A stretch of 64,000 nucleotides of DNA from assembly GCA_036630325.1 (NCBI GenBank), contig CP142727.1, positions 1,302,001-1,366,000 of the forward strand, in the 5' to 3' direction. The translations under genes were made by a program, and so were the position numbers. The stretch's first letter is position 1. Every line of letters starts with the position of its first letter. Positions 1,845 to 58,225 of this stretch are shown here, in pieces. The stretch is from Vairimorpha necatrix. Lineage: Eukaryota. The notes under the pieces are model-generated. The model searched no databases and was not told the origin of the DNA. It was given only the letters and a program-made list of their open reading frames with translations.

Positions 1845-1892
1845 TGTCTTTATTTATCATAATGGGGATAGAAATTATACAAATATATCACA
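1845..1892 (-). repeat. 3' LTR of copy A (48 bp)
   Basis: Identical to 4609-4657 except one fewer base in the G/C run; preceded on the minus strand by PPT GAGGGGGGGA (1893-1902). Confidence 0.92.
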
Positions 1893-1915
1893 TCCCCCCC
1901 TCAAGACGGTTAGTC

Positions 1916-4624
1916 TCATCTAATTTTCACATCTACCCCAAGCATACCCTTCAGATCATAATGTCTCTTCTTCACAAGCCTACCATTACTAAGTTTTACA
2001 ATATAAGAATCCTTTCCACACTTTTCAACAATTTTTCCTGTATCCAAAAATCTTCCTTTTTCATACTTATTAACACCTGCCAAATTTTCTCGTTTAGCTA
2101 TTCTTACCAATTGACCTTTACTAAATTTTTCGATCTTTCCCTTTCCAAACCTATTACAATATTTCCCTATAGGGCTATTTGCAAGCATTACGTCTCCAGT
2201 TTTATCTTCAGTCGCTTCTAATGGTGTACATTTTATTCCCGTATGATAGCTCTGATTATATATATCGATACTTTTATACACTTTACCTTCAAAAGTTTTC
2301 GCATCCGACTTTAAAATACTTTCTCTCAAAGTTCCTATAACACGCTCTACTCTTCCGTTACTTCTATGCGCTTCTATACTTACTTGTCGGTGTATTATAT
2401 CGAGATCTCTACAAAATTTTCTAAATTCCGCGTTAATAAACTCCTTCCCGTTATCTGTAATAATTTCTTCTGGTTTCTTCCCTTGCTCACATAATCTTTT
2501 CAAAAATCCAACAACATTATTACTTGACTTGTTATTTATAACTACTCCCCATACTCTACGTGTAAAATAATCGATAGCAACTAAAACATATTTCTTCTCA
2601 TTTCTAAAGTCTATCAAATCTAATGCAACCTTCTCTAAGTATCTCGACGTATCTACAAATTCACAACCACCCATATTTTTCCTGTTATTATTAAAAAACG
2701 GTTTATTTCTTATCTCCACCAGTGCTTTGTGATCCGTTTCTATCTTGAATTTCCTACCTCTTAACTCGTATTTAAATTTATCAATGCCCCAATATATCGC
2801 AAGCATTTCCTTTTCTGATATTCCATATCTTATTTCGGTAGGTGTTAGCTTTTTAGATGCCCATTGTATAGCAACCCATTCCCCATTCTCATTCTTCTGA
2901 AGTAACACCGCACCCAATCTCAAATTGCTAGCGTCTGTTCTTAGTATGAACTCCTTATTATAGTCCGGTAATCTTAGTCTTCCCATATTTCTTAACACAT
3001 TTTTCATTTTAGTAAATTCCTCTTTCATCTCTTCCGTAAATTTCCACGAATTGCCATTTTTCTTCAAACTATCTGTCATTTTCAACGTCAGCCCGGCATA
3101 ATCTTTTATAAATGGTCTGAACCACCCAGTCAATCCTAGAAACCTCCTCAATTCCGTCAAAGTTTTTGGATCCGGATACTCCAAGGCTTCATTTTTCTTT
3201 ATTTCGTCGGCCGTCATGTCTATTCCATTCAGCGTCACACCTAATAATTTTACTTCCGCTTGTCTAAACTGTATTTTCCCAATATTTAATTTCATTTTAT
3301 TTCTCTTAATTCTTTCTATAACCTCTATTACTAATTCATCGTGTTTACGTTTATTGTTGGCATGTATTACTATATCGTCCATGTATACCTCAACACCATT
3401 TCCTCGCAAATCTTCAAAAATCATATTCATCGTTCTCTGTAGTATCTGTGGGGAATTTTTGTATCCCATCACCATACTATTCCATTCGTAAACTTTTTTA
3501 TTGAATTCAAACGCCGTCTTATGTTTATCTTTTTCTTCGATTTCAAAATGGTAAAATGCTTCTTTGCAATCAACAACAGTAAATATTATCGACCCTTGCG
3601 TAGCTCTTATTATTTCTCTCATATTCGTTAGCTCATACGGGTCTTTCTCGACTAAATCATTCAACCCTATAAAATTACTAACTACTCTTACTTCACCACT
3701 TGGTTTAAGTATCGCTCTTATTGGGTTTCGCCATTCCGAAGACGATCTTCTTATAATTTTTCTATTTTCTAAATCATTAATATATTCCTCAGTCTGTTTG
3801 ATCAAAGCCTGTGGGATCGTCTGTCCCTTTCTGACTATCTTCTTACCCTCTGGAGTATCTATCTTACACTTCTCTAATGTACAATAACTTATAACCTCAT
3901 CTCCTTGTTTAAAAACTTCTTCATATTCCGCTTTGAGATCTTCCAACGTAAATTCCCTCTTCAGTAATCTTCTTTTCGTCTCTTTATTGCTCGCATATAT
4001 TCTTTCTTTATGTCTTCTATCACTATTATCACATTCCTTTAACTTAACTCGTTTTGTCTTTCCACTTGGTTTATATTCTTTATTATCATTACTGCTACTA
4101 CAACTTTGGTTTTCGTCTAAATTTAAGTACTTATTAAACTTTTTATTATTTTTCTGATTATTGTTCCTTCCTAAATAGCAGTTCCTAGCCATATGACCAA
4201 ATTTACCACAATTAAAACAATTCCTATTATTTCTTATTTCTTGTACTGTACTCCTTAAAACTAAATCTTTCTCTTGAATTTCTTTTCTCACAGTTTCTCT
4301 AACATTCTCAGCTATGACCTCCATAAGTTCTCTCCTATTTTCTTCTTCTTTTTTAGTTCTTTCTTCTCTACATATTTCCTCCTCTAATTTTTCAATTATT
4401 TTATAATATTCGTCCTCTTTACTAATTCTTTCTACCATGAAATTTTTTATTTCTTCACTTCCTTCCATAAATATTCTCTGCTTCCACAAACTGATTTCTA
4501 CTTCCTCCATCTCCAACCTATACATTATTCTTCTAACTTCCTTTATTAACTTTTTGGCCTCTAGACCACAGTCCACACTTGTAAACTGACGATTCGGTAT
4601 CGCCCCCATGTCTTTATTTATCAT
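1916..4624 (-). CDS. Gag-Pol polyprotein (short Gag with CCHC knuckle, RT, RNase H, integrase core; no protease motif; integrase zinc finger deleted)
   Basis: CFNCGKFGHMARNC knuckle; RT YMDD; RNase H TDAS and TDH; integrase IDYFTR, TDNG, SNGRVER. The ATG lies inside the 5' LTR after a CCCCC run. Confidence 0.9.
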   Translation of the reverse strand: MINKDMGAIPNRQFTSVDCGLEAKKLIKEVRRIMYRLEMEEVEISLWKQRIFMEGSEEIKNFMVERISKEDEYYKIIEKLEEEICREERTKKEEENRRELMEVIAENVRETVRKEIQEKDLVLRSTVQEIRNNRNCFNCGKFGHMARNCYLGRNNNQKNNKKFNKYLNLDENQSCSSSNDNKEYKPSGKTKRVKLKECDNSDRRHKERIYASNKETKRRLLKREFTLEDLKAEYEEVFKQGDEVISYCTLEKCKIDTPEGKKIVRKGQTIPQALIKQTEEYINDLENRKIIRRSSSEWRNPIRAILKPSGEVRVVSNFIGLNDLVEKDPYELTNMREIIRATQGSIIFTVVDCKEAFYHFEIEEKDKHKTAFEFNKKVYEWNSMVMGYKNSPQILQRTMNMIFEDLRGNGVEVYMDDIVIHANNKRKHDELVIEVIERIKRNKMKLNIGKIQFRQAEVKLLGVTLNGIDMTADEIKKNEALEYPDPKTLTELRRFLGLTGWFRPFIKDYAGLTLKMTDSLKKNGNSWKFTEEMKEEFTKMKNVLRNMGRLRLPDYNKEFILRTDASNLRLGAVLLQKNENGEWVAIQWASKKLTPTEIRYGISEKEMLAIYWGIDKFKYELRGRKFKIETDHKALVEIRNKPFFNNNRKNMGGCEFVDTSRYLEKVALDLIDFRNEKKYVLVAIDYFTRRVWGVVINNKSSNNVVGFLKRLCEQGKKPEEIITDNGKEFINAEFRKFCRDLDIIHRQVSIEAHRSNGRVERVIGTLRESILKSDAKTFEGKVYKSIDIYNQSYHTGIKCTPLEATEDKTGDVMLANSPIGKYCNRFGKGKIEKFSKGQLVRIAKRENLAGVNKYEKGRFLDTGKIVEKCGKDSYIVKLSNGRLVKKRHYDLKGMLGVDVKIR
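4591..4608 (-). promoter_or_regulatory. Primer-binding site, probably tRNA-Pro
   Basis: TGGGGGCGATACCG abuts the LTR. Its complement ...TATCGCC-C-CCA fits a tRNA 3' end with a C discriminator, as in eukaryotic tRNA-Pro. The same 13 nt occur at 47348-47360. Confidence 0.65.
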
Positions 4625-4657
4625 AATGGGGGATAGAAATTATACAAATATATCACA
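4609..4657 (-). repeat. 5' LTR of copy A (49 bp)
   Basis: Minus strand reads TGTGATATATTTGTATAATTTCTATCCCCCATTATGATAAATAAAGACA. Confidence 0.92.
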
Positions 4658-4745
4658 ACATATTTAAATTAAATTTTTTGATTTAACAATCTGTATAGAT
4701 CGTTGAACATTTATTTAAATTTTCTTATATAAATAATATTTATAA

Positions 4746-4878: not shown

Positions 4879-5228
4879 TGTCAGGCTGCAGACCTGCACT
4901 GACGATACGGCTTCCAGTTAAACAATAATAATTGGACCTGTCAAACATCTCGAAGTAGTGTAAACAAACATTGAACATTTGACATGCACAAACTAAAAGT
5001 AGGAAAGGTGCATGTCACATGACGTACTACTACTTTAGTAGAACTTTGGTTTCTTGTTTGTTTGTTTACATCTTAAAGAGTTTGACAGTTAATCTAATTA
5101 ACTATTTAAACGGAATTTACCCCTAACCCACAATTCCGATGAGCAACAAAAAAGATAACAACTTAAATAAATATGTTAACTTAGACTCACCCTCTTCTAC
5201 TTCGGATCAGGCTACATGCCGGATCACA
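4879..5228 (+). repeat. 5' LTR (350 bp)
   Basis: Direct repeat of 8925-9270; differences seen are two substitutions and one 4-bp TGTT indel. Confidence 0.95.
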
Positions 5229-8200
5229 AATGGCGACAACGAAGAGATTTGTAAAGAAGAAAATATGGATTCAATACTCTTAAAATTAAAAAATTTAATG
5301 TCAATGGAAAAGTGGATAACTTTTCAAGGACTAAAAACTGAACATCCAAAGACATTTTTAGGGCAATTCTTAGAATATGAGAAGCAATGGCCTCAGAGCA
5401 CCCTATATGCAAAAGCGACTTCAATGCTTAAGGGAAAAGCCGAACTATGGTTTAGAGCGAATGAAGAATCGATGCTCACATATAAGCAATTTGTTGAAAA
5501 TTTTAAACGTAATTTTATTAAAAGAGAATCAGAAATAGATAAAACTGAAAAGTTCTGGGACCTAATCAGGGAAGGCCCAATTCATCCAGATATGCTGTCA
5601 TACAGTTACAGCCTACATATATACGCTGGACAATCAGAATCCTTATTTAAAAGAAGTAAAGAGAAACTCAGAGATTTATTAGATGACGAATACCTTCGCG
5701 ATGGTATAGAAAGATGTCATGATTGGAACGAGTTAGAGGAATACATAAAGTTAAAAGAAGAAAGATTAAACAAAAAAATTCGAATCTTCTATAAAAAACA
5801 ATATAAAAATAAAAACGAATATAAAAATAAGAATGAATATAAAAATAAAAATGAATATAAAAGTAGTGAAAGAAAAATAGACTACAGGGGCAACGAGACA
5901 AGAGTCAGCCCCGATTCAAAGCCTTATAAAAAAGAATTATTTAAAAAGAATGAGCAAAAGAAAGCTCTAATTATCTCAGCAAAACTACTAAAAGTAAATG
6001 ATCGAAGACCAAGAGTAAAATTAAATTTTGAAGATCAAGTTATAGTAGCATTATTGGACTCAGGGGCTAACGTATCAGTTATACGTAGAAAAGAAGCGGA
6101 AGAGCTGAGTGATGAAATTCTAAAGGAAAAAGGAGAAATAAAAGGTTTTAATGGAACAAGCAGAGTGATAGGCTCATGTAAACTTAAAATAAAACCAAAT
6201 AATCGCTCAGGAGCGGAAACAATTACCTTATTAGTGGTGAATGATATGGAGGAAGCGATAATTCTTGGAATAGAAGAAATCGAAAAATTAAATATGATAG
6301 ACTATATCCCAATAAATCAAAAGAAAGTCGGTAAAAAAAGATCAATACCTAAGAAAAAAAGGATTGTATTAAACGCGGAAGTTACTACAAAGAAGGAAGA
6401 TAGTAACCCGGATTTGAATGAATTAATTAAGAACATCAAATGTGAAAACACACTGTTAAGAAAGAAGTATACACACACTCTTGAAAAATATACTAAACTA
6501 TTCTCTGATGATAATTCTTTAAATAATATCGAGATCGAACACGCGATCGAATTAGTAAATGGAGCTACTATGTCTCCATGCCCAAAGTATAAAAGATCCC
6601 CGGAAGAACACAAGATCATTCGAGAAGAAGTTAAGAAATTTATTGAAAAGGGCATAATTGAGGAGAGTGAAAGTCAGTATATATCACCAGTGGTACTAGT
6701 AAAAAAAAAGGATGGAGGTATTAGGTTTTGTATAGACTTCCGACGATTGAATAAAATAACAATACCATATGAATATCCGATACCAAGGATTGATGAGACC
6801 CTGGATCAACTACAAGGGGCTAAAATATTTAGCACAATGGACGTTGAATCGGCTTATAACCAGATATCTGTAAGGCAAGAAGATAGATTTAAGACTGCTT
6901 TTTACACACGAGAAGGAATCTATCAATGGAGAAAAATGCCTTTCGGGTTAATTAATGCACCCTTCACATTTCAAAAGATCATGAATAAGTACTTTGCGAA
7001 ATATATGCACAAATTTGTAACAATATACTTAGATGATATTTTAGTATATTCAAACGATCATGATAGCCATCTACAACATTTAGAGACTATTCTGAGTATT
7101 ATTAAGAAGGTAGGGCTGAAACTAAATAAGAAAAAATGTCAATTTGTACAGGAAAGTGTGGAATTTCTTGGATTTAGTGTGTGCAACGGAGAGATTTCAA
7201 TACCTTCGCAGCAAAGGATGCGTTCAATCAATTGGCCCGAACCGAAGACAAAAAGAGATGTCAGGGCTTTTAATGGATATTCTTCATTTTTTAGCAAGTT
7301 TATTAATAATTACGCAGATAAAATGAATCCATTATACGATACGATTAAGGGAGCTAAAAATTCAAAACTGAAAATGACAGAAGAAGCTTTGCAAGCATTT
7401 AATAATATGAAAAAGGAAATCGCCAATGCATCTGGCTTGAAACTACCAGATTTTAGAAAGAAATTTTACTTATATACAGATGCATCAAAACTGGCATTGG
7501 GAGCAGTATTACAACAAGAAGATGAACATGGAGAATTGAGACCCATTATATGCATCTCAAGAACTTTGAGCCCAGCAGAAATTAACTACACGGTAACTGA
7601 AAAGGAGTGCTTAGGTGTAGTGTGGGGAGTTAAAAAACTACGAGTTTATCTGACACAACAGTTCATAATAAGGACAGATCATCAAGCATTAAAATGGCTA
7701 CTAAATCTAAAAGATGCTACAGGTAGACTAATGAGATGGATATTGACCTTACAAGAGTATAAATATATAATTGAATACATACCTGGAGAAGAAAATGTAA
7801 TGGCCGATGCACTCAGTAGAATTGTGATGATAGCATCAAATACTCAAGAAGAGGAAAAGCTATCCGCCGACGAGAAGGTTCGAGTAATACTAAAAAGTCA
7901 TCACGAGTGCGGACATGGCGGTGTTGATGCAACATACGTACTCACATTGAGAGAAAAAAATGGAAAGGCATGTATAAGGACGTGATCGAAACGATAAGAA
8001 GATGTAACATATGTAATCGACATTCACGTGGGGCCACTAATTTACAGAAAATCAGACTTCCACTGATGAATCCCCTGGATAGAATAGGGATAGACCTAGT
8101 AGGTCCTCTGCCGAAAAGTTATAATGGAAATAGATACGTAGTAATTACAACGGATTATGTAACTAGATGATGCGAAGCAGACGCAATAAAATCTAAATCT

Positions 8201-8884
8201 ACAAATGTGATTGCTTTATTTATACTAAAGAAGATAATTTGCCAACATGGACCACCTAAGGAAATATTGTCTGATCAAGGCACGGAATTCACGAGCAGAT
8301 TAATAAAAACTATATGTGGCATGATGAATTGTAAGAAATCGTTTACTTCAAGTTACAACCCGAAATGTAATGGGTTGGCAGAGCGCACTAATCAAACCCT
8401 AATAGGTAAACTAGCTAAATTAGTTGATGGTAGGTGGAAACAGTGGGATGAATACCTCCCCTATGCGATATTTGCTTACCGAATATCTCCAAGAAAACAA
8501 TCTAAAAGGTCCCCGTACGAACTTTTATATGGGAGATTGCCAAATATGTTTCTAGAGGCCAAGTTAGATGATAATATCCTTGAAGATAACGGCCTTATAG
8601 TCGAGAGATTAAACGAATTTCGTAAATTAATGATAAATGAAGAAAAAGAAATACGCGCAAAAGAAATAACAAATGTTAAGAAGGGTAGAAGCCTTGACGA
8701 TATTGAAGAAAATGATTACGTAAGAAGGAAAAAACTGTTAACTGAAAAAGAGAATAAGTTAGATGCAAACTTTGATGGAATCTATAAAGTCATAAAAAAA
8801 GGGAAGAATGGAAACTATGAAATTGAAGGTTTAAATGGAATGCGATACTCAGTGAATCGAAAAGACTTAATGAAAATTGAATAG
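5139..8884 (+). pseudogene. Gag-PR-RT-RH-IN polyprotein, disrupted in the integrase
   Basis: Protease LLDSGA; RT YLDD; RNase H TDAS; integrase HHCC, SDQG, NGLAER. Frameshift in the A-run near 7955 and an in-frame TGA at 8168-8170 where Trp is expected. Confidence 0.9.
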
Positions 8885-8924
8885 TCAGATCCAATAGATT
8901 GGATTCTTTCGAAGGAGGGGAGAG

Positions 8925-9270
8925 TGTCAGGCTGCAGACCTGCACTGACGATACGGCTTCCAGTTAAACAATAATAATTGGACCTGTCAAACATCTCGAA
9001 GTAGTGTAAACAAACATTGAACATTTGACATGCACAAACTAAAAGTAGGAAAGGTGCATGTCACATGAAGTACTACTACTTTAGTAGAACTTTGGTTTCT
9101 TGTTTGTTTACATCTCAAAGAGTTTGACAGTTAATCTAATTAACTATTTAAACGGAATTTACCCCTAACCCACAATTCCGATGAGCAACAAAAAAGATAA
9201 CAACTTAAATAAATATGTTAACTTAGACTCACCCTCTTCTACTTCGGATCAGGCTACATGCCGGATCACA
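8925..9270 (+). repeat. 3' LTR (346 bp)
   Basis: Direct repeat of 4879-5228, preceded by the PPT. Confidence 0.95.
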
Positions 9271-11201: not shown

Positions 11202-12949
11202 TCTGGGCGCAATCTATGACCCCTATATATTTCCAACCTGTGCAGGCGTTGGCCCCAAGGATTTTTACCCCGTACAGGCGTGACCCCTATCAATTCCCAA
11301 CCTGTGCAGGCGTTTACCCCTAGTATTTCTAACCTGTGCAAGCATTGAACCCCGAGTTTTCCTTAAGAAAAGCCCTTTCTAAATCATATCTCAATTAGAA
11401 TAATAAATACTAAAATTGGATTAGAACCCACGGCCCATACGAGGAAACACCTAAGCATGCCACTAGACTATAGCATACTAAAAAAACATAAAGTTTTATC
11501 ATAAAGCAACACTTAAATTATTTAATTTGATATATAAATTAATGTTTTTTTGTCGTTAAAAAATTAATCTTTCTCCCAGAAATGCTGTTGATTATGATGA
11601 TTTAACATTAATCTTACAAGGCAGAGATAATGAAAATGTTTTACAAAAGCAACAAAAAAACGGTTGAAACAAAAAGCTGTCAATTACCTTCTTATAGATG
11701 GGGCACTATATTTAAGGGATGAGGTCAATGGAAACCATCCGAAGGATTTCTATTGTAAACAGCTCGAAGCCATGGAAGTTGAATGTAGAGCTTTCCTCCA
11801 GCTTCATCACAGGGGCGTTATAAGATTTGAAGCATCATGCAATAAGGTTTTTTTAAAATCCCTAGGGACATTATTAGAAAAGTCGTCTTCACATGCATTG
11901 TTTGTGGACAGTCGCAACCGTTAAAAAATAAAGAGCGCCAAGCCATATTGCGGGCTTTAAGCCTATAGAACGCTTTAATCGATTTAATCAAAATGACGCG
12001 CTATAAAAAGTTTATCAAGGGGTATTGTTGGATTTTAACAATAATTGATGTGTATTCTAAGTTATCCTGAGCCTTTCCATTAAAGAGTAAAACGGGAAAG
12101 AGGGCACAAAACCCCTAAAATTTTTATTTCACAATATAACTGGTCCTCCCAAGATCCTTCAAATCGATAATGGGAATATATTCTGCAATTCCCATATATA
12201 ATAAACTTCTTGCAGACTTTGCTATTGTTCAAAAATTAGTAGGCAGCGTCACCAAAAATCAAACTGGCAAATAGAAAGGTTCAACCAAACTTAAACTCGC
12301 ACTATTCAAAAACATGTTTTGAAGAATTTTTGCATGCTGTTGATAATTCTAGAGCCGAAGATGAAAAGTAATGGCTTTAACATCTTAATAGAGTCGTATA
12401 CAACTATAATTTAGCCAAAAATAGTGCGACAAATCAGGTTCCCTTTAACCTATTTTTAAAAATACCAGAATTTAATTCTGTTTTTGTCCAGGATGGTAAC
12501 GAGCCTTTAGATGATAGTATGAAAGAAGTTGAATTGATGATTGATGCAGAAAATAAAAATGAAGTTGAGATTGGTGTTCTTGAAGAAAAAACAGAGGCTG
12601 GTGCAGTTGAACAAAATTACCTTGCAAGAATGGATCGTCATTCGTTGGTTCATATCTCAAAAATATACTTTTAAAATTACGGACAAGGTAATTGTAGCTA
12701 GAGACTTTGATAATAATATAAAAACAAAAAAACTAAAATTATCTTCCTTTTTTTTCAAAGAAGTTACAATTGCAGAAATTCTCCAAACAACCGAGTGAAA
12801 TGTGAAACTGAAGAAGGTACACAGATTTGATATGTCTAGGCTCAAAAAACTCTAATATTAAACAATCGATTTTAAATTTGTTTGTTTTTGCTTTTTATTT
12901 CTTATTATTTTTACTTTCTAATGGGAGGGGTCAACGCTCGCGCGCCACA
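11202..12949 (+). mobile_element. Integrase-only (Ginger-like) DNA transposon relic
   Basis: Degraded rve integrase at ~11600-12450 (HHRG..CIVC zinc finger, IIDVYSK, GPPKILQIDNG, SNWQIERFNQ) with no Gag, RT or LTR. Degenerate inverted ends (TGACCCCT motif near 11217; its reverse complement near 12926, ending CCACA). Confidence 0.55.
11216..11353 (+). repeat. ~30-bp subterminal tandem repeats (about 4 copies)
   Basis: Unit approximates TGACCCCTAnnnATTTCnAACCTGTGCAGGCGT. Confidence 0.75.
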
Positions 12950-13702: not shown

Positions 13703-15628
13703 TTATATACATCGTTTATTTTTTTTAATGTTTTTTAATTTATAATTATGTTTTCGGCTCATCACCTCACAAATATTTTTTATGCGCTTAGACAAAGATT
13801 CTTTTTGTTTATAAAAGTCCTCAAACTTATAAACCAAAGACAACAAATCATATAATATTTCAATTTTTTTTTCATTCTCGCATATCGTTTTGTTATTTAA
13901 ATTATAATAAATTATTCTAGTAAAATCTGATAGATTGATTTTATTTAACGCGGTTTCTATTTTCCAATAATCTAATGAGAAATAAAAAAACAGTTTATAA
14001 TATTCTTTACACACACCTAAAAGTCTGTTTGGAGGTATTACGAAATTGCATACCGAGATTACAAAGTTTAATGAATTGATAATCAATTCATTATGTTGGC
14101 TTTCTAAGCAACTGACTTTATCTTTTATAGAATAGGCGTACGTTATCAAGTTCTTTTCGTAAAACTCAAATTTAGACTTCAAATAATTTCTATTAATTTT
14201 TATTGTTTTCATTTCTTGTTTATTTAATGTAAGTTTTTTTCTGTAGTTTGGTATACGCGAAATAAATAATGCTTCTTCATCTCTTAAAGTCTCTAATGTG
14301 ATTTTTAGATCTTTTAATCGTTTATCTAATAAAAGACCATTATTTATTGCAGGAAACGTAAGCTTATTATTAGTTTCATTCTGGATTCTCTTACTGGCAC
14401 GATCTATGGATATTGATTCGCCATTAGCTATAGTTGTCGATGATATGTCATTAATAATTGCATTGTTTTTTTCTTGGAATGTGTCGTCATCTATTAAACC
14501 TTCCTTTGCATTATAATTACCGCTAGTGTCATAAATAATTGGATATTTTCTATCCAAAAATGTATCTTCATGTGCTTCTTGCTCATATATTCTTTGACTT
14601 TGTATAAAAACACGATCGGTATGTAGATTTACATCCTTGAGATTTTCTCCGCATGATAAATCACTATTGTTGTTATATTTACTTCGCACATATGTGATAT
14701 TGCGATATCTTTTTTTTTGTATTTGTTCATAAATTGAATCATCACAAAAAGCATTTTGATTATCTTGAGATTTCTCTCTTTCATGTGATGAAAACATCGG
14801 CCTCTCGTCAGTCGTAATTGTTGTACGTTCGATATCATGACTTTCTCGATACATTGGCTCTTGGGTTGATAATTGCTCGTGTGTTTTACTATGATTAATT
14901 ACTGCGCTACAAAGGTTATTATCTTTTTTATTGTGTGTCTCGCTAGATGTTTTTTTCTTTTTATAACTAATTATACCACAATTATAACCAGGATTTTCCT
15001 CGTGTAGTATATTTTTTTGTGTTTTATATTTGTTTGTTATAGACTTTCCTCCGACGACACAACCTGCATTACTTTTTTTCTCATGAAAATTTTCACTAGT
15101 ATTTACAACTGTATTTTTTACATTCGATAAATTAATATCAAATTTTTTATTATTATAATAATACGCTTTGTTTATTTTGTCACAAGTGAAATTATTATTT
15201 GTTACATGGTTCTCTATGCCAGAATCAAATTGATAATTTCGTTCATTAAAATTCCCATAATACGTTAAATCTTCATTCACTGCATTTTTTGCTTCAGATT
15301 TACATTCAAATTGACGATTTTTTGCGACGTCTAAATCTTCATCAAATAAGTCGCGGAATGGTATATTTTTAGTAGAGACACAATTATAATTTTGAATATA
15401 TTCAATCTGGTGACTTTCCTCATGTGTATTATCAGTATTCATAATGTTTTTTAATTTTTCTCCTGGAATTTTCTCTTTATTAATTCCTAAAATAGTCTCA
15501 ATATCTTCTCCGTTAGATAAAACCGAGTCGATATCTTCATGTGTAAATCCTAACAAAGATTCAAGATCCTTTTCATCAGAAGATATATTTATCTCAGTGC
15601 ATTTTAGCAAAGAAATAATTAGTAACAT
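13703..15628 (-). CDS. Hypothetical protein, probably secreted (641 aa)
   Basis: Long ORF in AT-rich DNA; short hydrophobic N-terminus MLLIISLLKC; N/K/D-rich middle; helical C-terminal region; CCCC about 15 nt upstream on the minus strand. Confidence 0.75.
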   Translation of the reverse strand: MLLIISLLKCTEINISSDEKDLESLLGFTHEDIDSVLSNGEDIETILGINKEKIPGEKLKNIMNTDNTHEESHQIEYIQNYNCVSTKNIPFRDLFDEDLDVAKNRQFECKSEAKNAVNEDLTYYGNFNERNYQFDSGIENHVTNNNFTCDKINKAYYYNNKKFDINLSNVKNTVVNTSENFHEKKSNAGCVVGGKSITNKYKTQKNILHEENPGYNCGIISYKKKKTSSETHNKKDNNLCSAVINHSKTHEQLSTQEPMYRESHDIERTTITTDERPMFSSHEREKSQDNQNAFCDDSIYEQIQKKRYRNITYVRSKYNNNSDLSCGENLKDVNLHTDRVFIQSQRIYEQEAHEDTFLDRKYPIIYDTSGNYNAKEGLIDDDTFQEKNNAIINDISSTTIANGESISIDRASKRIQNETNNKLTFPAINNGLLLDKRLKDLKITLETLRDEEALFISRIPNYRKKLTLNKQEMKTIKINRNYLKSKFEFYEKNLITYAYSIKDKVSCLESQHNELIINSLNFVISVCNFVIPPNRLLGVCKEYYKLFFYFSLDYWKIETALNKINLSDFTRIIYYNLNNKTICENEKKIEILYDLLSLVYKFEDFYKQKESLSKRIKNICEVMSRKHNYKLKNIKKNKRCI

Positions 15629-27288: not shown

Positions 27289-27975
27289 ATGATAATTTTA
27301 TTTTTTTCTAAAATTTTTACCATATCGGAACGAGAGCTATTTTATTCATGGACAAAAGATTTGGTTAAAACCAATATAACAAATTATACCGATACCTTAA
27401 AACTGATAGAAAATAGTCGTTATGTGCACAAAGATCCTTTAGATTATTCATCTTGTAATGCTACCGAATACTTTTCTTATATTGAGCCTCTCGACATAAG
27501 TGAACTTAACTATGATGATCTAGAAATAGCTTCTAGATATATTTATCTAAAATTAATACAAGACAAGCTTTACAGAAAAACACTTAAAGAAATGTTAAAA
27601 TATAAACCATTAATCTATTTTGCTGATAAATTTGAGAATTTTCATAAGTACGTTTTAAGTTTTATTGAAAATACTAACGACGACGACGAGACATGGGCTC
27701 CGCTCTTGCTTGTGAAATCAATGGCATATATGAGTTATAAGCTAATTTATTTACTTTCGTTCGTCGAATTAGATGAACAGGCGATGTTTCTTGTGTGTTG
27801 GTCGATAAGAAATAATATTGCGTTCAAGACTGAAGAAAAATGTCAATGGCGATTAAATCAAATAATGAAAATTTTTAGCTATAACCCTTTATGTTGGTCA
27901 ATTGAGAAGGCTCTCACTCCTAATAATGATAAATATGATTGGCTTTGGGTAAAATATTTTCATAGAAAGCGGTAA
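27289..27975 (+). CDS. ~227-aa putative secreted multigene family member 1
   Basis: CCCA-ATG; hydrophobic leader; family motifs YSSCN..YFS..E.LD.S, KS.A...YKLIY..SF and C.W; close paralog of 57542-58225. Confidence 0.85.
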   Translation: MIILFFSKIFTISERELFYSWTKDLVKTNITNYTDTLKLIENSRYVHKDPLDYSSCNATEYFSYIEPLDISELNYDDLEIASRYIYLKLIQDKLYRKTLKEMLKYKPLIYFADKFENFHKYVLSFIENTNDDDETWAPLLLVKSMAYMSYKLIYLLSFVELDEQAMFLVCWSIRNNIAFKTEEKCQWRLNQIMKIFSYNPLCWSIEKALTPNNDKYDWLWVKYFHRKR

Positions 27976-39704: not shown

Positions 39705-40385
39705 ATGATGTTTCTATTATTTTATAGTACTTGTAAACTGAGTAGAGATGTACTCGACTTGCATACAAAAACAATGGTAAAAACCAATGAGACAACTAAC
39801 AAAACAACTGTAGAATATAGTACTAATAGTTTATATCATGAAGAAACTTCAAATTATATTTATTGTAATACTACTGATTACTTTTCTAATCTAGAAAAAC
39901 TCGATTTGAGTCAAATCGAATATACATTTCTAAGAGTTGCGTCTTGGCATGTTTATAAAATTCTTAGGAAAGCAAAACCATTTAAAAAAAAGATTCGAAG
40001 AATGGTAAAGTCAAAGGTAATGAGACGGAAAATTTTTGAATTTACTAATTTTAATTTTTATGTTAACTTTTTTATTAGAAACCTTCCACAGGTACGTGAT
40101 GATGAATATCCGTATTTGTTCTTAAGATCACTAGCATTACAAAGTTATAAACTAATTTATTTATTTTCGTTTGTTATAATAGATGATGTATATTGTAGGG
40201 ACTTGTTTGATATAATGAGAAAAAAAATGATATTAAGAACTGCAGATCACTGTCCATGGAAAATAACGAAACTTTATAACGAAAAAATTTATGATTATTT
40301 AATCGAAGCATTAGAATCCGTTGTATACGAAGATGAACATATAAGAAAAAAATTTACATTATCTAAATTAAACTTCGAAAACTAA
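39705..40385 (+). CDS. ~227-aa putative secreted family member 3
   Basis: CCCAA-ATG; same family motifs; tandem paralog of 44996-45676. Confidence 0.85.
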   Translation: MMFLLFYSTCKLSRDVLDLHTKTMVKTNETTNKTTVEYSTNSLYHEETSNYIYCNTTDYFSNLEKLDLSQIEYTFLRVASWHVYKILRKAKPFKKKIRRMVKSKVMRRKIFEFTNFNFYVNFFIRNLPQVRDDEYPYLFLRSLALQSYKLIYLFSFVIIDDVYCRDLFDIMRKKMILRTADHCPWKITKLYNEKIYDYLIEALESVVYEDEHIRKKFTLSKLNFEN

Positions 40386-44995: not shown

Positions 44996-45676
44996 ATGAT
45001 GTTTCTATTATTTTATAGTACTTGTAAACTGAGTAGAGATGTACTCGACTTGCATACAAAAACAATGGTAAAAACCAATGAATCAAAAAACAATCAAACT
45101 GTCGAATACAATGCTAAAAGTTCATATCTCGAAGAAATTTCAAATCATACCTTTTGTCTTACTACTGAATACTTTTCTAACGTAGAAGTACTTGATTTAA
45201 GTTTAATTGAATTTAGAAAAGTAAGAATCGCGTCTTGGCATGTTTATCATATCTTTAGAGATGCGAGACCATTTAAAAAAAAGATTCAAAGGATGGTTCA
45301 GTCAAAGACATTGAGACGAAAAATTTTTAATTTTGATAATTTTTATTTTTATGTATTACATTTTATAAGAAACCTCGAACAGGAGAATGATGAAGAATAT
45401 CCGTATTTGTTCCTAAAATCATTAGCATTTAAGTGTTATAGGCTAATCTATATACTTTCTTTTTTTGATTTAGATTATGAATACAATAAATTATTGCTTG
45501 ATAAATTGAGAACAAAAATAAAATTAAGAACTAAACGCTTCTGTCCATGGGAAATAACGAATATTTTTAGCGAAAATATTTATGATCTTTTAATCTGGAC
45601 ATTAGAATCCATTGTCGATGAAGATGACGAAGTAAGAAAAAAATTTACTTTTTCAAAAATTACTCTTGAAATCTAA
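44996..45676 (+). CDS. ~227-aa putative secreted family member 4
   Basis: First 29 residues identical to 39705-40385; same motifs. Confidence 0.85.
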   Translation: MMFLLFYSTCKLSRDVLDLHTKTMVKTNESKNNQTVEYNAKSSYLEEISNHTFCLTTEYFSNVEVLDLSLIEFRKVRIASWHVYHIFRDARPFKKKIQRMVQSKTLRRKIFNFDNFYFYVLHFIRNLEQENDEEYPYLFLKSLAFKCYRLIYILSFFDLDYEYNKLLLDKLRTKIKLRTKRFCPWEITNIFSENIYDLLIWTLESIVDEDDEVRKKFTFSKITLEI

Positions 45677-47298
45677 TCATTCTTCATTAGTTTTTTACCC
45701 ACTGTATATTAAATTATTTTGATTTTATTGTTATTAAAATGTTCACTATATGTATGCCTGCTTATTGTATAATAAATACGTATTAAAATGTCATAAAAAA
45801 ATAAAAGATTTGAACAAAAACAACTTTATTAAAATATCTAAGCTACTTTAAAGGCCTTTTGCTTTTTACTCTTTCACGAGTTTTTATTGACATGACTGGT
45901 AGATTATAGATGCCGTCCTATTTGTTGTATATTTCTAAAAAATTCATGCTAAATTTCTAGTCTACTTTTTCAATAGGATCTATTGATCGACTAGTATCTA
46001 TACTTCAATTCACATTAATAATTTTTGTATACTTGAGCAAAAAGGTCATTTTTAGAATACATATGTGGTTATGTGTGGTGGTACTCCTCATTCGTTCTAA
46101 TTTCTTTGTATTTGCTTGTTATTATACTGTCAAATTGTATTTTTAGCATATTTTATTTGATTATCTCATTTTATTTCTTTCTACCAATAACTAGGACGTA
46201 TTTGTATGAAAAAATATTGTAACATTACATGTTATAGTGTGTTTCTATGCTACACATCGATACCTCATATTGCACACCTTTTCTTTATTTGATAGTTTTT
46301 CAATTAAAGTTCATATATTTTAGTTTCGTAAAATAATATTGTGTTAATTTTTTTACAACACGTATTATTATCCTAAGTGATAATTATCTGCTTATGAAAA
46401 ATAAATTTATGTTTCTATTAAAATTTTTAATGTGAAAGTTAAATAAAAAACATAACATATTTATATCCGAAATTTAAAATAAAAACCTTAATATTGTAAA
46501 GCAATAAGAGGTTGACTTTTGTATTTGTCTAATTAATGCTAATTTTATGATTTAAATCTAATAACTTACTTTATTCGCATATAACAAATAAAAAAGGCTT
46601 AAAATTTTTCTGATACATTGTTTAATTATGCATCTACAATTATAGGTAATGGCACACTTGACAGATTATTTAAGATATTTATTAGAGTAGATACAAAAGG
46701 TAAAAAAGAACAAGTCAACTTATAAGATCTCTATTTAGCGATCTCATAAAATAAGCCCGTAGATAAATTTTTACCTTAAACATACGTTATTACTTGCAGA
46801 TTGACGCATATACGGAAAAAAATATTCTTGATTTGTTTATAACCTCATAAATCGAATGATCACAAAAAGTGTACTGAAATAGCATATATTATATAAATTT
46901 TTTTGAGATGATTTTTAATAATGATTTAGAAAATTTTCTATACGTTGATTGAGTTTTTTTATAGTCAGAGTATTGTTTGTTTTTGTTTATGATAATATAA
47001 TACCGCATCTTTGTCTATTTATAAATTATCGAAAGGTAAATACACAACATTATCGAAATCGGTATATATTGTTTTATACCGATGGCAGAACAGTTTCAAT
47101 AACTATAATTAATTTTAATATAAACCTTTGCAAGGTATGACTGGCATGAAATTTTTTTATATATAAGTACACAATATTTTTATTCGTAGATCATAAGCAC
47201 GTACTGACCATGATTAATAAAAATGTTTTATTTCGTTCAAAATTTAGAGCTAAATGTTTATATTTTCTTTCTTTATATTCTTAATACTCCATTATATA

Positions 47299-50200
47299 TG
47301 TTATATATCCTTATTATTTTTACCCCTCATTATGGAAAATAAACACATGGGGGCGATACCAGAAAATGGGTCTACAAAGGAGGACCGTGGCCAAGAGGCT
47401 AGAATATTATTAAAAGAGGTTAAAAGGATTGTTTATGAGTTGTTTTTAGAGAAAATTGATGAGTGTGGATTTAAATTAGAAATTTTTAGGAGAGGTTCTA
47501 TTTTATTGAGAAATTTTATTGTTGAGAGGATCTCGCAAGAGGGTAGTTGGAAGGAAATTGAGGAAAAATTAGAGTTGCTAGCTATTCAGGAGGAAAAGGA
47601 ACAAGTGAGAAAAAAAGAATTTGAAGAGTTGTCCCTAGCGTTATGGGCTAAATTTGAGGAGAAGAATAAGTTGTCTCGTGAGGAAAATAAAAAGAATATG
47701 CGTTGCTACAATTGTGGGAAGTTAGGCCATAGTGTTAGATTTTGTAGGGGAATGAGGCGAGATTCTGAAGACAGAAGAAATAAAAGTAGTTTTAATTATG
47801 TTGGTAAATGTAAAGTGCAATTAGACTTAGAGGGTAAATGTGATGACGATTCCAATTCGGACAAATGTGATTATTATAATGTTGATGGTGGGAAACGTAA
47901 GAAGAAAAATTTAGGGGATATACAAGATTATAGCAAAAGGGACAATAATAAGAGAGTTCTGTTGAGAAGGGATGTAAGAGGCATCGCGTATTTAGAGGAG
48001 ATTATTTCACGGGTAGGAGGAAGAGAGGATGAAGATATTAGTTTTTGTAAGGTTGAAAAATGTATTATCAAGACTCAAGAAGGCAAGAAAGTTGTTAAAA
48101 AAGGGCAGGCTATAGCTCAGGCTTTGTTGAAGAAGACGGAAGATTATATTAATAGTTTGGAAAGAAGAAAGATAATTAGAAGGTCGACATCTGACTGGAG
48201 AAATCCCATTAGAGCGATTGAGAAACCGAATGGTGATATAAGATTAGTAAGTAATTTAATTGCTCTTAATGACATTGTAGAGAAGGATCCTTATGAGTTA
48301 ACTAGGATAAGAGATGTTATTAGAAGTACAAGGTATCTGAATTTTTTACCGTGATAGATCTAAAGGAGGGGTTTTATAGTATTGAGATTGAAGAGAAGGA
48401 TAGGTTTAAGACGGCTTTTGAGTTTAATAAAAAGGTATACGAGTGGAATTCGATGGTCATGGGGTTTAAAAACTCACCGCAGATATTACAAAGAATAATG
48501 AATGGGATTTTTGAAAAATTTATTGGTAAGGGAATCGAAATTTATATGGACGATATTGTGATTCATAGTAAGACAATAGAGGGTCACGACAAATTGTTGA
48601 AAGAGGCTGTGGATATATTAGAGGAGAATAGTATGAAAATTAATTTGGCTAAGGTTCAATTATGTAAACGAGAGGTGATGTTGTTAGGAGTAACAGTTAA
48701 TGGCAAACAGATACTGCCATCTGAAATAAAGCAAAATGAAGCGTTAGAATTTCCCAAACCGGAGTGTGTATCAGATGTTAGGAAGTTTCTTGGGCTGGCT
48801 GGATGGTTTAGAAATCATATTGATAATTATGCAAAACGTACATTGGCGTTGACGGATTCTCTTAAAGGACGAGGAAGTAATTGGAAATGGACAGAAGAAA
48901 TGGAAAAAGAATATACTAGTTTAAGGGAAGTGATTAGGGATTTAAAAGGTTTAGCAATTGTTAATTATAATAAGGAATTTTTGTTACGCACGGATGCGAG
49001 TAATGTTGGAATGGGTGCTGTTTTAATGCAGGAAGATGATCAAGGTAATTGGGTACCAGTACAGTGGGCATCAAAAAAGTTTACGCCTACGGAAACGAGA
49101 TATGGAATCAGTGAGAAGGAGATGTATGCAGTCTTTTGGGGAATTAAAAAGTTTGAATATGAACTACGCGGAAGAAGATTTAGGGTAGAAACTGATCATA
49201 AGGCATTGATCGAGATTAGAAATAAACCAGCATTTAACAATAATAGAATTAACAGGTGGATTGAAAAGATTCAAGAGTTCGACTTTAGCATTGAATATAG
49301 AGAGCCTAGTACCATGGTTGTAGCAGATGCACTGAGTAGGGTACATGAAAATGAGAAAACGCTAATGAATAAGGAGAGAAGTATTAAACAGGCACAGGGT
49401 AAATGGGACAAGCATGTTAAAGTTGTTGATGGGAAGGAAATTTGGGTATTTGACTCTGGTAGAGAAGCGGAGATTCCAAAGAAAGAATTGCGTGAAGGTT
49501 TAATTGTCAATGCTCATGAAAATTTGGGACATAGAAGTTTAGGATCAGTGTACTATGCAATGAAGTTTGAATTTTATTGGCCGGGTATGAAGAAGGATAT
49601 CGAGGATGTTTTAAAGAAGTGTGAAGTTTGCCAAATATATAATAGGAAAAAGAGTGGTGGTTGTGATTTTGTTAGTTCAAGATTTTATTTGGAAAAGGTT
49701 GCTTTGGATTTGATTGAGTTTAGAGATTTAGGGAAATATGTGTTGGTCGTGATTGATTATTATACTAGGATCGTTTGGGGAAAAGTAATAGAGGACAAAC
49801 GCGGAAGCTCGGTTGTAGGATTTTTAAAACAGTTGTGTGGATCAGGAATGAAACCGGTAGAAATAATTACTGACAACGGTAAAGAATTTAGTAATGAATA
49901 TATGAGGAATTGGTGTTCAGAGGAAAATGTATTACATAGGAAAGTAAGCGTAGAAAGTCATAGAAGTAATGGAAGAGTGGAAAGGGTAATAGGAACCATA
50001 AGAGAAGGAATATTGAAAGATGATGCTGTGGATTTTGAAGCCAAGGTTAATAGATGTATATGGCGTTATAATAACAGCTATCATGAAGGGTTGAGATATA
50101 CACCGTTTGAGGCCTCAAGAGACGAAACGGGCCATGTTATGATCGAGAATGGACCTGAAGGATTTTATAGTAGGAGGTTTGTGGCTCGCAAAAGAGAGAA

Positions 50201-50481
50201 ATTCTATAAAGGTCAGAGAGTTAGGGTAGCGAAGAAAAAGAACTGATCGGGTTGTAGTAAGTATGAGAAAGGAAGGTTTTTAGGATATGGTGTTATCAAG
50301 GAAGTTTGCGGAGGTGACTCGTACTTAGTTAGTTTGGAAAATGGTAGGATCGTGAAAAAGCGGCATTATGATTTAAAAGGTCTGCTTGGGATTAATGAGT
50401 TCTAGTATGAGACTACCGTCTTGGAGGGGGGATGTTATATATCCTTATTATTTTTACCCCTCATTATGGAAAATAAACACA
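47299..50481 (+). mobile_element. Ty3/Gypsy LTR retrotransposon with ultra-short 49-bp LTRs (copy B, full length, 3183 bp)
   Basis: Identical LTRs at 47299-47347 and 50433-50481. TSD ATATA (47294-47298 and 50482-50486). PBS TGGGGGCGATACC at 47348-47360. PPT GGAGGGGGGA at 50423-50432. Confidence 0.94.
47332..50405 (+). pseudogene. Gag-RT-RH-IN polyprotein without a protease motif; one frameshift and one nonsense codon
   Basis: ATG inside the LTR; CYNCGKLGHSVRFC, YMDD, TDAS, H..GH..CEVC, TDNG. Frameshift near 48330. After the TGA at 50244-50246 the frame continues (KYEKGRF...VKKRHYDLKG) to a TAG ending at 50405, matching the C-terminus of copy A. Confidence 0.88.
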
Positions 50482-57541: not shown

Positions 57542-58225
57542 ATGATATTTCTATTTCTTTATAAAATTTTTACAATGTCTGGCAGAGAAATATTTGATTC
57601 ATGGACAAAAAATTTAGTACGTACCAATACGACAATTTATACAGATACCATGGAACTTGTACCAAATAGTCGTTATGTCCGCGAAGATTCTTTAGATTAT
57701 TCATCTTGTAATGCTGACAAATACTTTTCTTACATTGAGCCTCTTGACATAAGTAGACTTAACTATAAAGATCTAAGAATAGCCTCTAAATTTATTTATC
57801 TTGAATTAAGACAGGACAAGCTTTACAGAAAAACACTTAAAGAAATGTTAAAAACTGAGCCTATGATAAATATTACTGATAATTTTGAGAATTTTCACAT
57901 GTACGTATTAAGTTTTATTAAATCAGATATAGACGAAGAAATATGGGAACCGTACTTGCTTGTAAAATCAATGGCATATAGGAGTTATAAGTTAATTTAT
58001 TTACTTTCGTATATCGAATTAGATGAACAGGCGAAAAATTTTGTGTCCAAATTGATAAAAAGAAGCCTTGAGATCAAGACTGAAAAAACATGTAAATGGC
58101 AATTATATCAGCTAATGAGAGTTTTTAGCTATTACCCATTATGTTTATCAATTGAAGGGGCTATTAATCGTGAACATGGTGGTTATGGTTGGCCTTGGGG
58201 AAGTTATTTCCATAAAAAACAATAA
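57542..58225 (+). CDS. ~227-aa putative secreted family member 5
   Basis: CCCCCA-ATG; close paralog of 27289-27975. Confidence 0.85.
   Translation: MIFLFLYKIFTMSGREIFDSWTKNLVRTNTTIYTDTMELVPNSRYVREDSLDYSSCNADKYFSYIEPLDISRLNYKDLRIASKFIYLELRQDKLYRKTLKEMLKTEPMINITDNFENFHMYVLSFIKSDIDEEIWEPYLLVKSMAYRSYKLIYLLSYIELDEQAKNFVSKLIKRSLEIKTEKTCKWQLYQLMRVFSYYPLCLSIEGAINREHGGYGWPWGSYFHKKQ

What the first reader, a model, noticed from the sequence alone, without database searches (positions are those of the whole stretch)
1916..4624. Short-LTR elements lack the aspartic protease and have a tiny Gag
Seen: in both copies ~130-135 aa of charged helical Gag and a CCHC knuckle are joined to RT by only ~75 aa of low-complexity linker with no D(S/T)G motif. 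The one DTG in copy A is near the C-terminus and is not conserved in copy B. The neighbouring 350-bp-LTR element does have LLDSGA. Two diverged copies share the loss and both have matching LTRs and intact TSDs, so it looks like a family trait of recently mobile elements. Inference: the polyprotein works uncleaved, or is processed in trans by a host or helper-element protease.
Basis: partly seen in the sequence, partly recalled or inferred. Interest (0 to 1): 0.75.

Follow-up and report, generated by a model that had tools for sequence, protein, structure and literature searches.

The report
Protease-less compact microsporidian gypsy retrotransposons
Two small jumping genes of a microsporidian parasite belong to an old, widespread branch of retrovirus-like elements that has lost the protease normally used to cut their single large protein into working parts, so they must replicate uncut or borrow a protease.

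Summary
Copy A (window 1845-4657, minus strand) and copy B (47299-50481) are Ty3/gypsy-type elements with 48/49-nt LTRs, 5-bp target duplications and one Gag-CCHC-RT-RNaseH-integrase frame. Between the zinc knuckle and RT lie only about 78 residues, predicted disordered. No protease was found by Pfam, a home-made protease profile, PDB sequence search or fold search. The same fold pipeline did recover a retropepsin in the neighbouring 350-bp-LTR element.

The loss is family-wide: 0 of 53 close relatives, including Nosema, Vairimorpha, Enteropsectra, Pseudoloma and Nematocida, carry a protease. On a rooted RT-RNaseH tree the protease-less rows form one clade nested among compact protease-bearing lineages. 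This points to an old single loss, not recent deletion derivatives.

Copy A has an in-frame deletion removing the integrase HHCC finger. Copy B has one frame change and one stop, though a 97-98% identical intact 1024-aa relative exists.

How the polyprotein works (uncleaved, host-trimmed or helper-cleaved) stays untested; I favour no dedicated cleavage. This scan had already noted the same protease-less family elsewhere in this genome. I found no paper describing it.

The parts
1845..4657 (-). Copy A, whole element (2813 bp) with flanking 5-bp target duplications TATGT at 4658-4662 and 1840-1844
   Evidence: Direct repeats and sequence reading
4609..4657 (-). Copy A 5' LTR, 49 nt, TG...CA ends. 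It holds the first in-frame ATG (4624-4622). Its last A, with the TG of the primer-binding site, forms the second ATG (4609-4607).
4596..4608 (-). Putative tRNA primer-binding site TGGGGGCGATACC, lying inside the coding frame. Copy B has the same 13 nt.
   Evidence: The tRNA was not identified, and the window has no tRNA gene.
4226..4570 (-). Small Gag helical domain (residues 19-133): three short helices plus one helix of about 60 residues
   Evidence: AlphaFold2 with a 33-row alignment, pLDDT about 95. Fold matches were only generic helical ones, best Z 6.7. Arc C-lobe (Z 5.8) and RSV CA-CTD (Z 5.6) tie with unrelated rows.
4178..4219 (-). CCHC zinc knuckle (residues 136-149), nucleocapsid-like
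   Evidence: Pfam zf-CCHC E 9.9e-5. PDB sequence search matches retroviral NC proteins only, best E 3.4e-4.
3944..4177 (-). Linker (residues 150-227, 78 aa) where relatives carry the protease. It is charged and polar, predicted disordered, and has no D[ST]G.
   Evidence: pLDDT <50 over 159-223. No protease by Pfam, by the home-made profile or by Foldseek. hhalign of family linkers against sister protease regions gives probability 0.03%.
2690..3943 (-). Reverse transcriptase and RNase H (residues 228-645), with YMDD at 414
   Evidence: Pfam; family profile
2684..2692 (-). Junction of a copy-specific in-frame deletion of about 125-130 aa. It removed the RNase H tail and the whole integrase HHCC zinc finger.
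   Evidence: Alignment with 7 relatives, all of which keep the segment. Integrase_H2C2 is absent from copy A but present in 43 of 54 family members.
1916..2620 (-). Integrase catalytic core (rve, residues 669-746), C-terminal region and stop codon (1918-1916)
1893..1902 (-). Polypurine tract GAGGGGGGGA abutting the 3' LTR
1845..1892 (-). Copy A 3' LTR, 48 nt
47299..50481 (+). Copy B, whole element (3183 bp). LTRs are 47299-47347 and 50433-50481; TSD ATATA lies at 47294-47298 and 50482-50486. There is one frame change near 48331-48340 and one in-frame stop at 50244-50246. It keeps the integrase HHCC finger and has no protease.
4879..9270 (+). Neighbouring 350-bp-LTR gypsy element, used as comparison and positive control, not part of the family. 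Its protease is at residues 288-384 of ORF 5139-7985 (about 6000-6290), with LLDSGA at residue 305.
   Evidence: AF2 plus Foldseek recover the retropepsin fold. It groups with animal and plant gypsy elements on the tree.

Best explanation
Both copies belong to an ultra-compact clade of Ty3/gypsy LTR retrotransposons. All named members but one come from microsporidia. Elements are about 2.8-3.2 kb, LTRs about 49 nt, and there is one Gag-Pol frame.

Shown: this clade lost the retropepsin domain once, early in its history. In its place sits a short, sequence-variable, charged and disordered tether between the CCHC knuckle and RT.

Inferred: the element has no dedicated maturation step. The roughly 1000-aa protein most likely acts as an uncleaved fusion, or one trimmed only unspecifically by the host. 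In that fusion a small helical domain and a CCHC nucleic-acid-binding knuckle are tethered to RT-RNaseH-integrase. It would work more like a ribonucleoprotein, as in LINE-type elements, than like a capsid that matures by cleavage.

The two window copies are recent insertions but are themselves defective. Copy A lacks the integrase HHCC finger. Copy B has a frame change and a stop. They were probably made or mobilised by intact relatives.
For: No protease in the window copies or their relatives:
- Pfam at E<=1 and E<=10 finds none in copy A or copy B.
- 0 of 53 close relatives have a precomputed protease Pfam domain, against 11 of the 56 more distant hits.
- No retropepsin family appears among the 25 families shown for the 54 members.
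- 0 of 54 members match a home-made protease profile at E<=10, although that profile detects non-seed relatives.
- Pfam at E<=10 finds none in five further members, including Nematocida and Pseudoloma.

No room for a protease:
- The knuckle-to-RT spacer has a median of 49 aa (27-170; 32 of 37 measurable; 29 of 32 are <=80 aa).
- In protease-bearing compact relatives the median is 116.5 aa (107-191; 8 of 14 measurable).

No protease fold:
- AF2 gives pLDDT <50 over residues 159-223, and Foldseek gives 0 hits at E<=0.001.
- The same pipeline on the neighbour's spacer gave a beta-rich domain and at least 289 hits at E<=0.001, led by Ddi1, EIAV and HIV proteases.

Linker composition: 43% charged and 28% hydrophobic, against 26% and 40% in protease spacers. 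The linkers do not align with each other.

Derived single loss:
- On the careful 38-row tree rooted on five protease-bearing gypsy elements, the 20 protease-less rows form one clade (support 89/67; one change in 88% of 200 bootstrap trees).
- Its sister and the successive outgroups all carry a protease.
- On the 97-row tree a 46-row clade (98*) has all 35 assessable rows without a protease.

Long-term viability: many diverged relatives keep intact frames of about 1000 aa. They include a 1024-aa protein 97-98% identical to copy B. Named members come from five microsporidian genera.
Against: - No protein, RNA or transposition data exist here, and no RNA run was listed.
- In retroviruses and in Ty1/Ty3, protease-defective mutants do not transpose (recalled, established knowledge). 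Working uncleaved would therefore be a real departure.
- A helper is at hand: a young protease-bearing gypsy element lies 216 bp from copy A.
- Neither window copy is demonstrably autonomous.
- Monophyly of all protease-less rows has only moderate support (89/67). The larger tree leaves a trichotomy that would allow two losses.
- The home-made protease profile under-scored six distant outgroup rows, so it is not fully sensitive.
- Most relatives are unnamed contigs, and their host is inferred.
Confidence: 0.55

Rival explanations
1. The polyprotein is cleaved in trans by the retropepsin of co-resident protease-bearing gypsy elements. The family would then be a long-term parasite of other elements' protease.
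For: A young protease-bearing element with an LLDSGA active site lies next to copy A. Compact protease-bearing sister lineages exist.
Against: - The linker is not conserved in sequence or length (27-170 aa) across the family, so no shared cleavage site is visible.
- The neighbour's RT-RNaseH is phylogenetically far away, grouping with animal and plant gypsy elements.
- The clade has persisted and diversified across five named genera. That would need a helper to be present in every host.
- Co-occurrence could not be tested because no genome is held.
Confidence: 0.2
2. A host protease, for example a Ddi1-type retropepsin or another cytosolic protease, specifically cuts in the disordered linker and releases Gag-NC from Pol.
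For: The linker is predicted disordered and rich in K, R, E, N and S, the kind of segment proteases reach. Cellular Ddi1 shares the retropepsin fold, as seen among the top hits of the control search.
Against: No conserved motif is seen at the linker or its borders. Whether this organism encodes Ddi1 could not be checked. This reading is pure inference.
Confidence: 0.15
3. The copies are recent non-autonomous deletion derivatives of full-length, protease-bearing members of the same family.
For: Copy A does carry one internal in-frame deletion, in the integrase. This shows that such deletions occur.
Against: 0 of 53 close relatives have a protease. The protease-less rows form a deep, diversified clade with branch lengths of 0.2-1.5 changes per site, distinct from the protease-bearing sisters. 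The spacer is short in 29 of 32 members.
Confidence: 0.03
4. A cryptic or non-canonical protease is hidden in the polyprotein, either in the linker or elsewhere.
For: Weak Peptidase_A17 matches occur in 3 of 54 members, best E 0.029.
Against: - Those matches lie in the RT-RNaseH connection (P0009 residues 496-615; P0132 residues 506-615). They are far below the curated cut-off.
- All 902 residues of copy A are accounted for by Gag, knuckle, disordered linker, RT, RNaseH and integrase.
- There is no NPGP 2A-type motif in any of the 111 sequences scanned.
- The antisense ORFs have no Pfam match.
Confidence: 0.02

Closest known systems
Microsporidian Ty3/gypsy single-polyprotein elements (groups of Parisot et al. 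2014, PMC4202319; Nbr elements of Nosema bombycis, Xu et al. 2006)
   Same: Microsporidian host range, gypsy-type RT-RNaseH-integrase order, and one frame for gag and pol. Passages of PMC4202319 state this single polyprotein.
   Different: - In PMC4202319 the word 'protease' occurs 0 times.
- A passage of PMC2474625 says nearly all N. bombycis elements encode Gag, protease, RT, RNaseH and integrase.
- Xu et al. 2006 is not held, so I could not see whether any Nbr element lacks a protease.
- I did not compare their sequences with this family.
Unnamed compact protease-bearing relatives (P0137, P0255, P0203, P0180, P0198, P0205, P0215, P0217 and others; 975-1170 aa on 3.4-3.7 kb contigs)
   Same: They fall in the same 100*-supported clade on the RT-RNaseH tree, have a single frame, and are small.
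   Different: - They keep a retropepsin, with D-T/S-G 36-50 aa after the knuckle where one is present.
- Their knuckle-to-RT spacer has a median of 116.5 aa.
- Their Gag is roughly 50-100 aa longer at the N-terminus, judged from profile match offsets.
DGLT-A of Dictyostelium discoideum
   Same: A gypsy-type element of a compact genome with gag fused in frame to pol (passages of PMC6101501).
   Different: DGLT-A is 1437 aa and has a protease domain at residues 231-425. This family is about 1000 aa and has none.
Ty3 of yeast and the single-frame Tf1 of fission yeast (recalled)
   Same: LTR, PBS and PPT layout, Gag with a CCHC knuckle, and RT-RNaseH-integrase order.
   Different: Both encode a protease that is required for transposition (recalled, not tested here). 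Their LTRs are hundreds of bases long.
Retroelements that work without their own protease: DIRS/Ngaro elements and LINEs (recalled); foamy-virus PR-RT, which stays uncleaved (abstract in search listing of 10.1101/2020.11.23.395087)
   Same: Reverse transcription is carried out by a large multi-domain protein that is not fully processed. This is what the family may work like.
   Different: DIRS elements use a tyrosine recombinase, and LINEs use target-primed reverse transcription without LTRs. Foamy viruses still encode a protease. This family has a DDE integrase, LTRs, a PBS and a PPT.

Membership tests
Ty3/gypsy (Metaviridae) LTR retrotransposons | Direct terminal repeats with TG...CA ends, flanked by a short target-site duplication | tested here: met
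   48/49-nt LTRs with 5-bp TSDs in both copies. The LTRs are far shorter than usual.
Ty3/gypsy (Metaviridae) LTR retrotransposons | Primer-binding site next to the 5' LTR and polypurine tract next to the 3' LTR | tested here: met
   TGGGGGCGATACC follows the 5' LTR and GAGGGGGGGA precedes the 3' LTR in both copies. The priming tRNA was not identified.
Ty3/gypsy (Metaviridae) LTR retrotransposons | Pol domain order RT, RNase H, integrase | tested here: met
   Pfam coordinates. Homologues are named gypsy, 17.6 or Tf2 polyproteins by their sources.
Ty3/gypsy (Metaviridae) LTR retrotransposons | Gag with a nucleocapsid zinc knuckle | tested here: met
   zf-CCHC at 135-149; retroviral NC matches. 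A capsid-like fold for the 19-133 domain is inconclusive.
Ty3/gypsy (Metaviridae) LTR retrotransposons | Retropepsin (aspartic protease, D-T/S-G) between Gag and RT | tested here: not met
   The positive control on the neighbour element passed.
Ty3/gypsy (Metaviridae) LTR retrotransposons | Integrase with an N-terminal HHCC zinc finger and a DDE core | tested here: inconclusive
   Copy B and 43 of 54 family members have both. Copy A has the core only, after a copy-specific deletion.
Non-autonomous LTR elements (LARD/TRIM type) | No coding capacity for RT or integrase | tested here: not met
   A long frame with RT, RNase H and integrase is present.
DIRS/Ngaro-type protease-less retroelements | Tyrosine recombinase in place of a DDE integrase; split or inverted repeats | tested here: not met
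   An rve DDE core is present, and the repeats are direct LTRs with TSDs.
Microsporidia-specific gypsy groups of Parisot et al. 2014 | Single polyprotein frame; placement in their groups 1-3 | tested here: inconclusive
   The single frame is met.

The most novel reading that the evidence does not exclude
An autonomous Ty3/gypsy lineage replicates with no proteolytic maturation at all. A single uncleaved protein of about 115 kDa, made of a helical domain, a CCHC knuckle, RT, RNase H and integrase, binds its own RNA and carries out reverse transcription and integration as a ribonucleoprotein without a closed, maturing capsid. The lineage has persisted this way since before the named microsporidian genera (Nematocida to Nosema/Vairimorpha) acquired it.
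Probability: 0.3. Interest if true: 0.85.

Novelty: new variant of a known kind. Interest (0 to 1): 0.62.

Why it matters
A protease is treated as part of the core gene set of autonomous LTR retrotransposons and retroviruses, and polyprotein cleavage is treated as an obligatory step. An old, diversified clade with intact frames and recent insertions but no protease offers a natural test of that view. It asks whether capsid maturation and release of RT and integrase are truly needed, or whether a tethered fusion can do the job.

The finding also marks how far such elements can shrink: about 3 kb, 49-nt LTRs, and a start codon built across the LTR/primer-site border. Standard LTR finders and domain-based classifiers would miss or misfile them.

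The question is directly testable by immunoblot or proteomics in infected cells, and by a marked-element transposition assay with and without a helper protease.

Tried and rejected
- **Whole-genome survey.** No genome is held for this window. Copy counts, a host Ddi1 gene and co-occurrence with helper elements could not be checked.
- **RNA evidence.** No RNA holder was listed, and read laying was not used.
- **Self-association of the Gag domain.** Complex prediction with two copies of residues 16-152 gave no verdict, score 0.00.
- **Capsid-like fold of Gag.** Foldseek gave nothing at E<=0.001. The VIA wide search gave only generic helical matches, best Z 6.7. Arc C-lobe (Z 5.8, rmsd 2.7, 64 aligned) and RSV CA-CTD (Z 5.6) tie with unrelated rows, so this is a lead only.
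- **2A-type peptide.** No NPGP occurs in any of the 111 sequences scanned.
- **Premature polyadenylation in the linker as a source of Gag alone.** AATAAA is scattered along both elements (13 and 7 sites) with no focus on the linker.
- **Antisense ORFs in copy A** (1844-2221 and 3216-3491). No Pfam match.
- **Related DNA.** Viral contigs held no relative. Metagenome contigs gave only three family loci (L001-L003), and no terminal repeats were found in L001 or L002.
- **AU test of one protease-less clade on the 97-row set.** It did not finish in three runs and was replaced by a careful 38-row tree.
- **Representative search.** The top 150 hits were mostly long multi-copy gene models. Only those of <=1300 aa were examined.
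- **Literature.** Searches found no paper describing a protease-less gypsy lineage. DGLT-A, which I had suspected, does have a protease.
Full report
**What is at the coordinates**

The window is AT-rich eukaryotic DNA, GC 0.22-0.36. ORF 4624..1916 on the minus strand encodes 902 aa. Pfam finds these domains:
- a CCHC knuckle at 135-149;
- RVT_1 at 305-465;
- RNase H at 529-641;
- an integrase core at 669-746.

No aspartic-protease family appears at E<=1.

The element is bounded by 49- and 48-nt direct repeats with TG...CA ends (4657..4609 and 1892..1845) and a 5-bp duplication, TATGT. A TGG-type primer-binding site follows the 5' repeat, and GAGGGGGGGA precedes the 3' repeat.

Copy B (47299-50481) has identical 49-nt repeats, the duplication ATATA, and the same 13-nt primer site and purine tract. 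tblastn of copy A's protein against the window finds only copy A, copy B (43-62% identity) and the neighbouring 350-bp-LTR element (31%).

**The observation**

A family RT-RNaseH profile puts the RT start at residue 228. The spacer after the knuckle is therefore 78 aa.
- The only D[ST]G in copy A is at residue 861, and it is not kept in copy B.
- The neighbour has LLDSGA at residue 305 and an RVP match.

**Is a protease hidden?**

I tested this in four ways.
- **Sequence profiles.** Pfam at E<=10 finds none in copy B's N-terminal part, in the three family members with the longest spacers, or in the antisense ORFs. A PDB sequence search with residues 1-300 at E<=10 returns only nucleocapsid knuckles and chance rows.
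- **Home-made protease profile.** I built it from 20 protease-bearing relatives. It hits 0 of 54 family members at E<=10, yet it detects non-seed relatives such as P0137, P0182, P0144, P0180 and P0199. It under-scored six distant outgroup rows, so it is not perfectly sensitive.
- **Structure.** AlphaFold2 on residues 1-300 with a 33-row family alignment gives the following:
  - a confident helical domain at 19-133, pLDDT about 95;
  - the knuckle;
  - a segment at 159-223 with pLDDT below 50;
  - no beta-rich domain.

  Foldseek against the PDB gives 0 matches at E<=0.001.
- **Positive control.** The same pipeline on the neighbour's knuckle-to-RT spacer (window 5889-6473, 20-row alignment) gives a beta-rich domain with pLDDT about 90. 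It also gives at least 289 matches at E<=0.001, led by Ddi1, EIAV and HIV-1 proteases.

The weak Peptidase_A17 matches (3 of 54 members, best E 0.029) lie in the RT-RNaseH connection in the two members I looked at.

**Family-wide trait**

The search for homologous proteins returned 109 proteins at E<=1e-10. The best 53 (E<=4e-98) form the family.
- Named members come from Nosema granulosis, Vairimorpha necatrix, Enteropsectra breve and Pseudoloma neurophilia. One carries a bacterial MAG label.
- A further member is from Nematocida sp..
- None of the 53 has a precomputed protease Pfam domain, against 11 of the 56 more distant hits.

The distance from knuckle end to YxDD has a median of 239.5 aa in the family (210-356; 42 of 54 measurable). 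In the outgroup, 19 of 31 measurable values fall between 314 and 450.

| Group | Measurable | Median knuckle-to-RT spacer | Range |
|---|---|---|---|
| Protease-less family | 32 of 37 | 49 aa | 27-170 aa |
| Compact protease-bearing relatives | 8 of 14 | 116.5 aa | 107-191 aa |

In the family, 29 of 32 spacers are <=80 aa. The family spacers do not align with each other. They are 43% charged and 28% hydrophobic, against 26% and 40% in the protease spacers. hhalign shows no profile similarity between the two sets, probability 0.03%.

**Direction and number of losses**

The exhaustive representative search mostly returned long multi-copy gene models. Among hits of <=1300 aa it revealed compact relatives of 975-1170 aa on 3.4-3.7 kb contigs that do carry a protease.

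I built trees from RT-RNaseH segments. I left out proteins over 1600 aa, those without a near-full RT-RNaseH match, and four duplicates.

On the quick 97-row tree:
- the compact elements form a 63-row clade (100*), separate from animal and plant gypsy elements;
- the window's neighbour falls with the animal and plant elements;
- a 46-row clade (98*) holds copy A, and all 35 assessable rows in it lack a protease. The other 11 are N-terminally truncated.

On the careful 38-row tree rooted on five protease-bearing outgroups:
- the 20 protease-less rows form one clade, support 89/67;
- one change is inferred in 88% of 200 bootstrap trees;
- the sister group (P0203, P0144, P0137; node 96/97*) and all successive outgroups carry a protease.

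The simplest reading is one old loss. Two losses are not excluded, because P0053 and P0132 may have lost it separately. The AU test on the large set did not finish.

Protease-bearing relatives exist, but as separate, deeply diverged lineages. The window copies are not deletion derivatives of them.

**State of the two copies**

- **Copy A.** Aligned with seven relatives, copy A lacks about 125-130 aa that all seven keep: the RNase H tail and the whole integrase HHCC finger. The deletion is clean and in frame. Pfam finds Integrase_H2C2 in 43 of 54 members but not in copy A.
- **Copy B.** It is 97-98% identical over its whole length to an intact 1024-aa protein from an unnamed metagenome contig. 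It has one frame change near 48331-48340 and one in-frame stop at 50244-50246.

Both copies are therefore recent insertions that are defective themselves. Intact protease-less relatives exist.

**How it most likely works**

Shown: there is no element-encoded protease, a disordered and variable tether sits in its place, and the clade has persisted and diversified for a long time.

Inferred: there is no dedicated maturation cleavage, for three reasons.
- With one frame and no protease, Gag and Pol are made 1:1.
- A closed capsid built only from fusions of about 1000 aa is hard to picture. This is an inference from what is known of Ty3 and retroviral capsids (recalled).
- The Gag part is about half the size of that in the sister lineages.

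I therefore favour a tethered fusion acting as a ribonucleoprotein, possibly trimmed unspecifically in the linker.

The rivals are cleavage by a co-resident element's protease or by a specific host protease. Neither could be tested, because no genome or RNA data are available.

**Comparison with what is known**

Passages of Parisot et al. 2014 note the single polyprotein of microsporidian gypsy groups but never mention a protease. A passage of PMC2474625 says nearly all Nosema bombycis elements have one. The primary paper is not held. DGLT-A of Dictyostelium, another single-frame element of a compact genome, has a protease. Six full-text searches found no description of a protease-less gypsy lineage. 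Word searches can miss other phrasings, and I did not open supplements.

**Earlier notes of this scan**

The same protease-less, tiny-LTR family was already reported from other places in this genome. My results agree with those notes. They add the rooted phylogeny, the protease-bearing sister lineages, the Nematocida member, the positive control and the defects of these two copies.

Noticed in passing
window 4607-4609 (copy A) and 47347-49 (copy B): The ATG that opens the conserved N-terminus (MGAIP...) is formed by the last A of the 5' LTR plus the TG of the primer-binding site, so the primer site is translated. Many relatives start with similar M-A/G-x-T/I motifs preceded by a short, variable M-x(4-5) leader.
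   Followed up: partly
window 2684-2692 (copy A): The in-frame deletion that removed the integrase HHCC finger lies between two similar N-N-R / N-R-K spots. This suggests template switching or slippage at a short repeat.
   Followed up: partly
protein P0137 (unnamed ENA contig), residues about 255-262: A protease-bearing sister element has D-P-G where its relatives have D-T/S-G. This may be a decaying active site in the lineage next to the protease-less clade. The immediate sister group also lacks a canonical CCHC knuckle.
   Followed up: no
contig lengths of relatives: Many relatives of about 1000-1020 aa sit on contigs of only 3.0-3.2 kb, leaving about 30-100 nt outside the frame. That is expected if the whole family has LTRs of tens of bases and almost no non-coding sequence.
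   Followed up: no
window 4879-9270: The neighbouring gypsy element has 99-100% identical 350-bp LTRs, but its integrase region is split: ORF 5139-7985 ends early in the integrase, and a separate 187-aa ORF lies at 8321-8884. On the tree it groups with animal and plant gypsy elements, not with the microsporidian compact clade.
   Followed up: partly
window 27289-27975, 39705-40385, 44996-45676, 57542-58225: Four dispersed ORFs of 226-228 aa have no Pfam match. The first two are 33% identical (E 2e-25), so this is a local paralogous gene family of unknown function.
   Followed up: partly
window 11217-11343: A GC-rich 32-nt unit is repeated about four times in tandem within AT-rich DNA.
   Followed up: no
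window 13703-15628 (minus strand): A 641-aa ORF has no Pfam match at E<=1.
   Followed up: no
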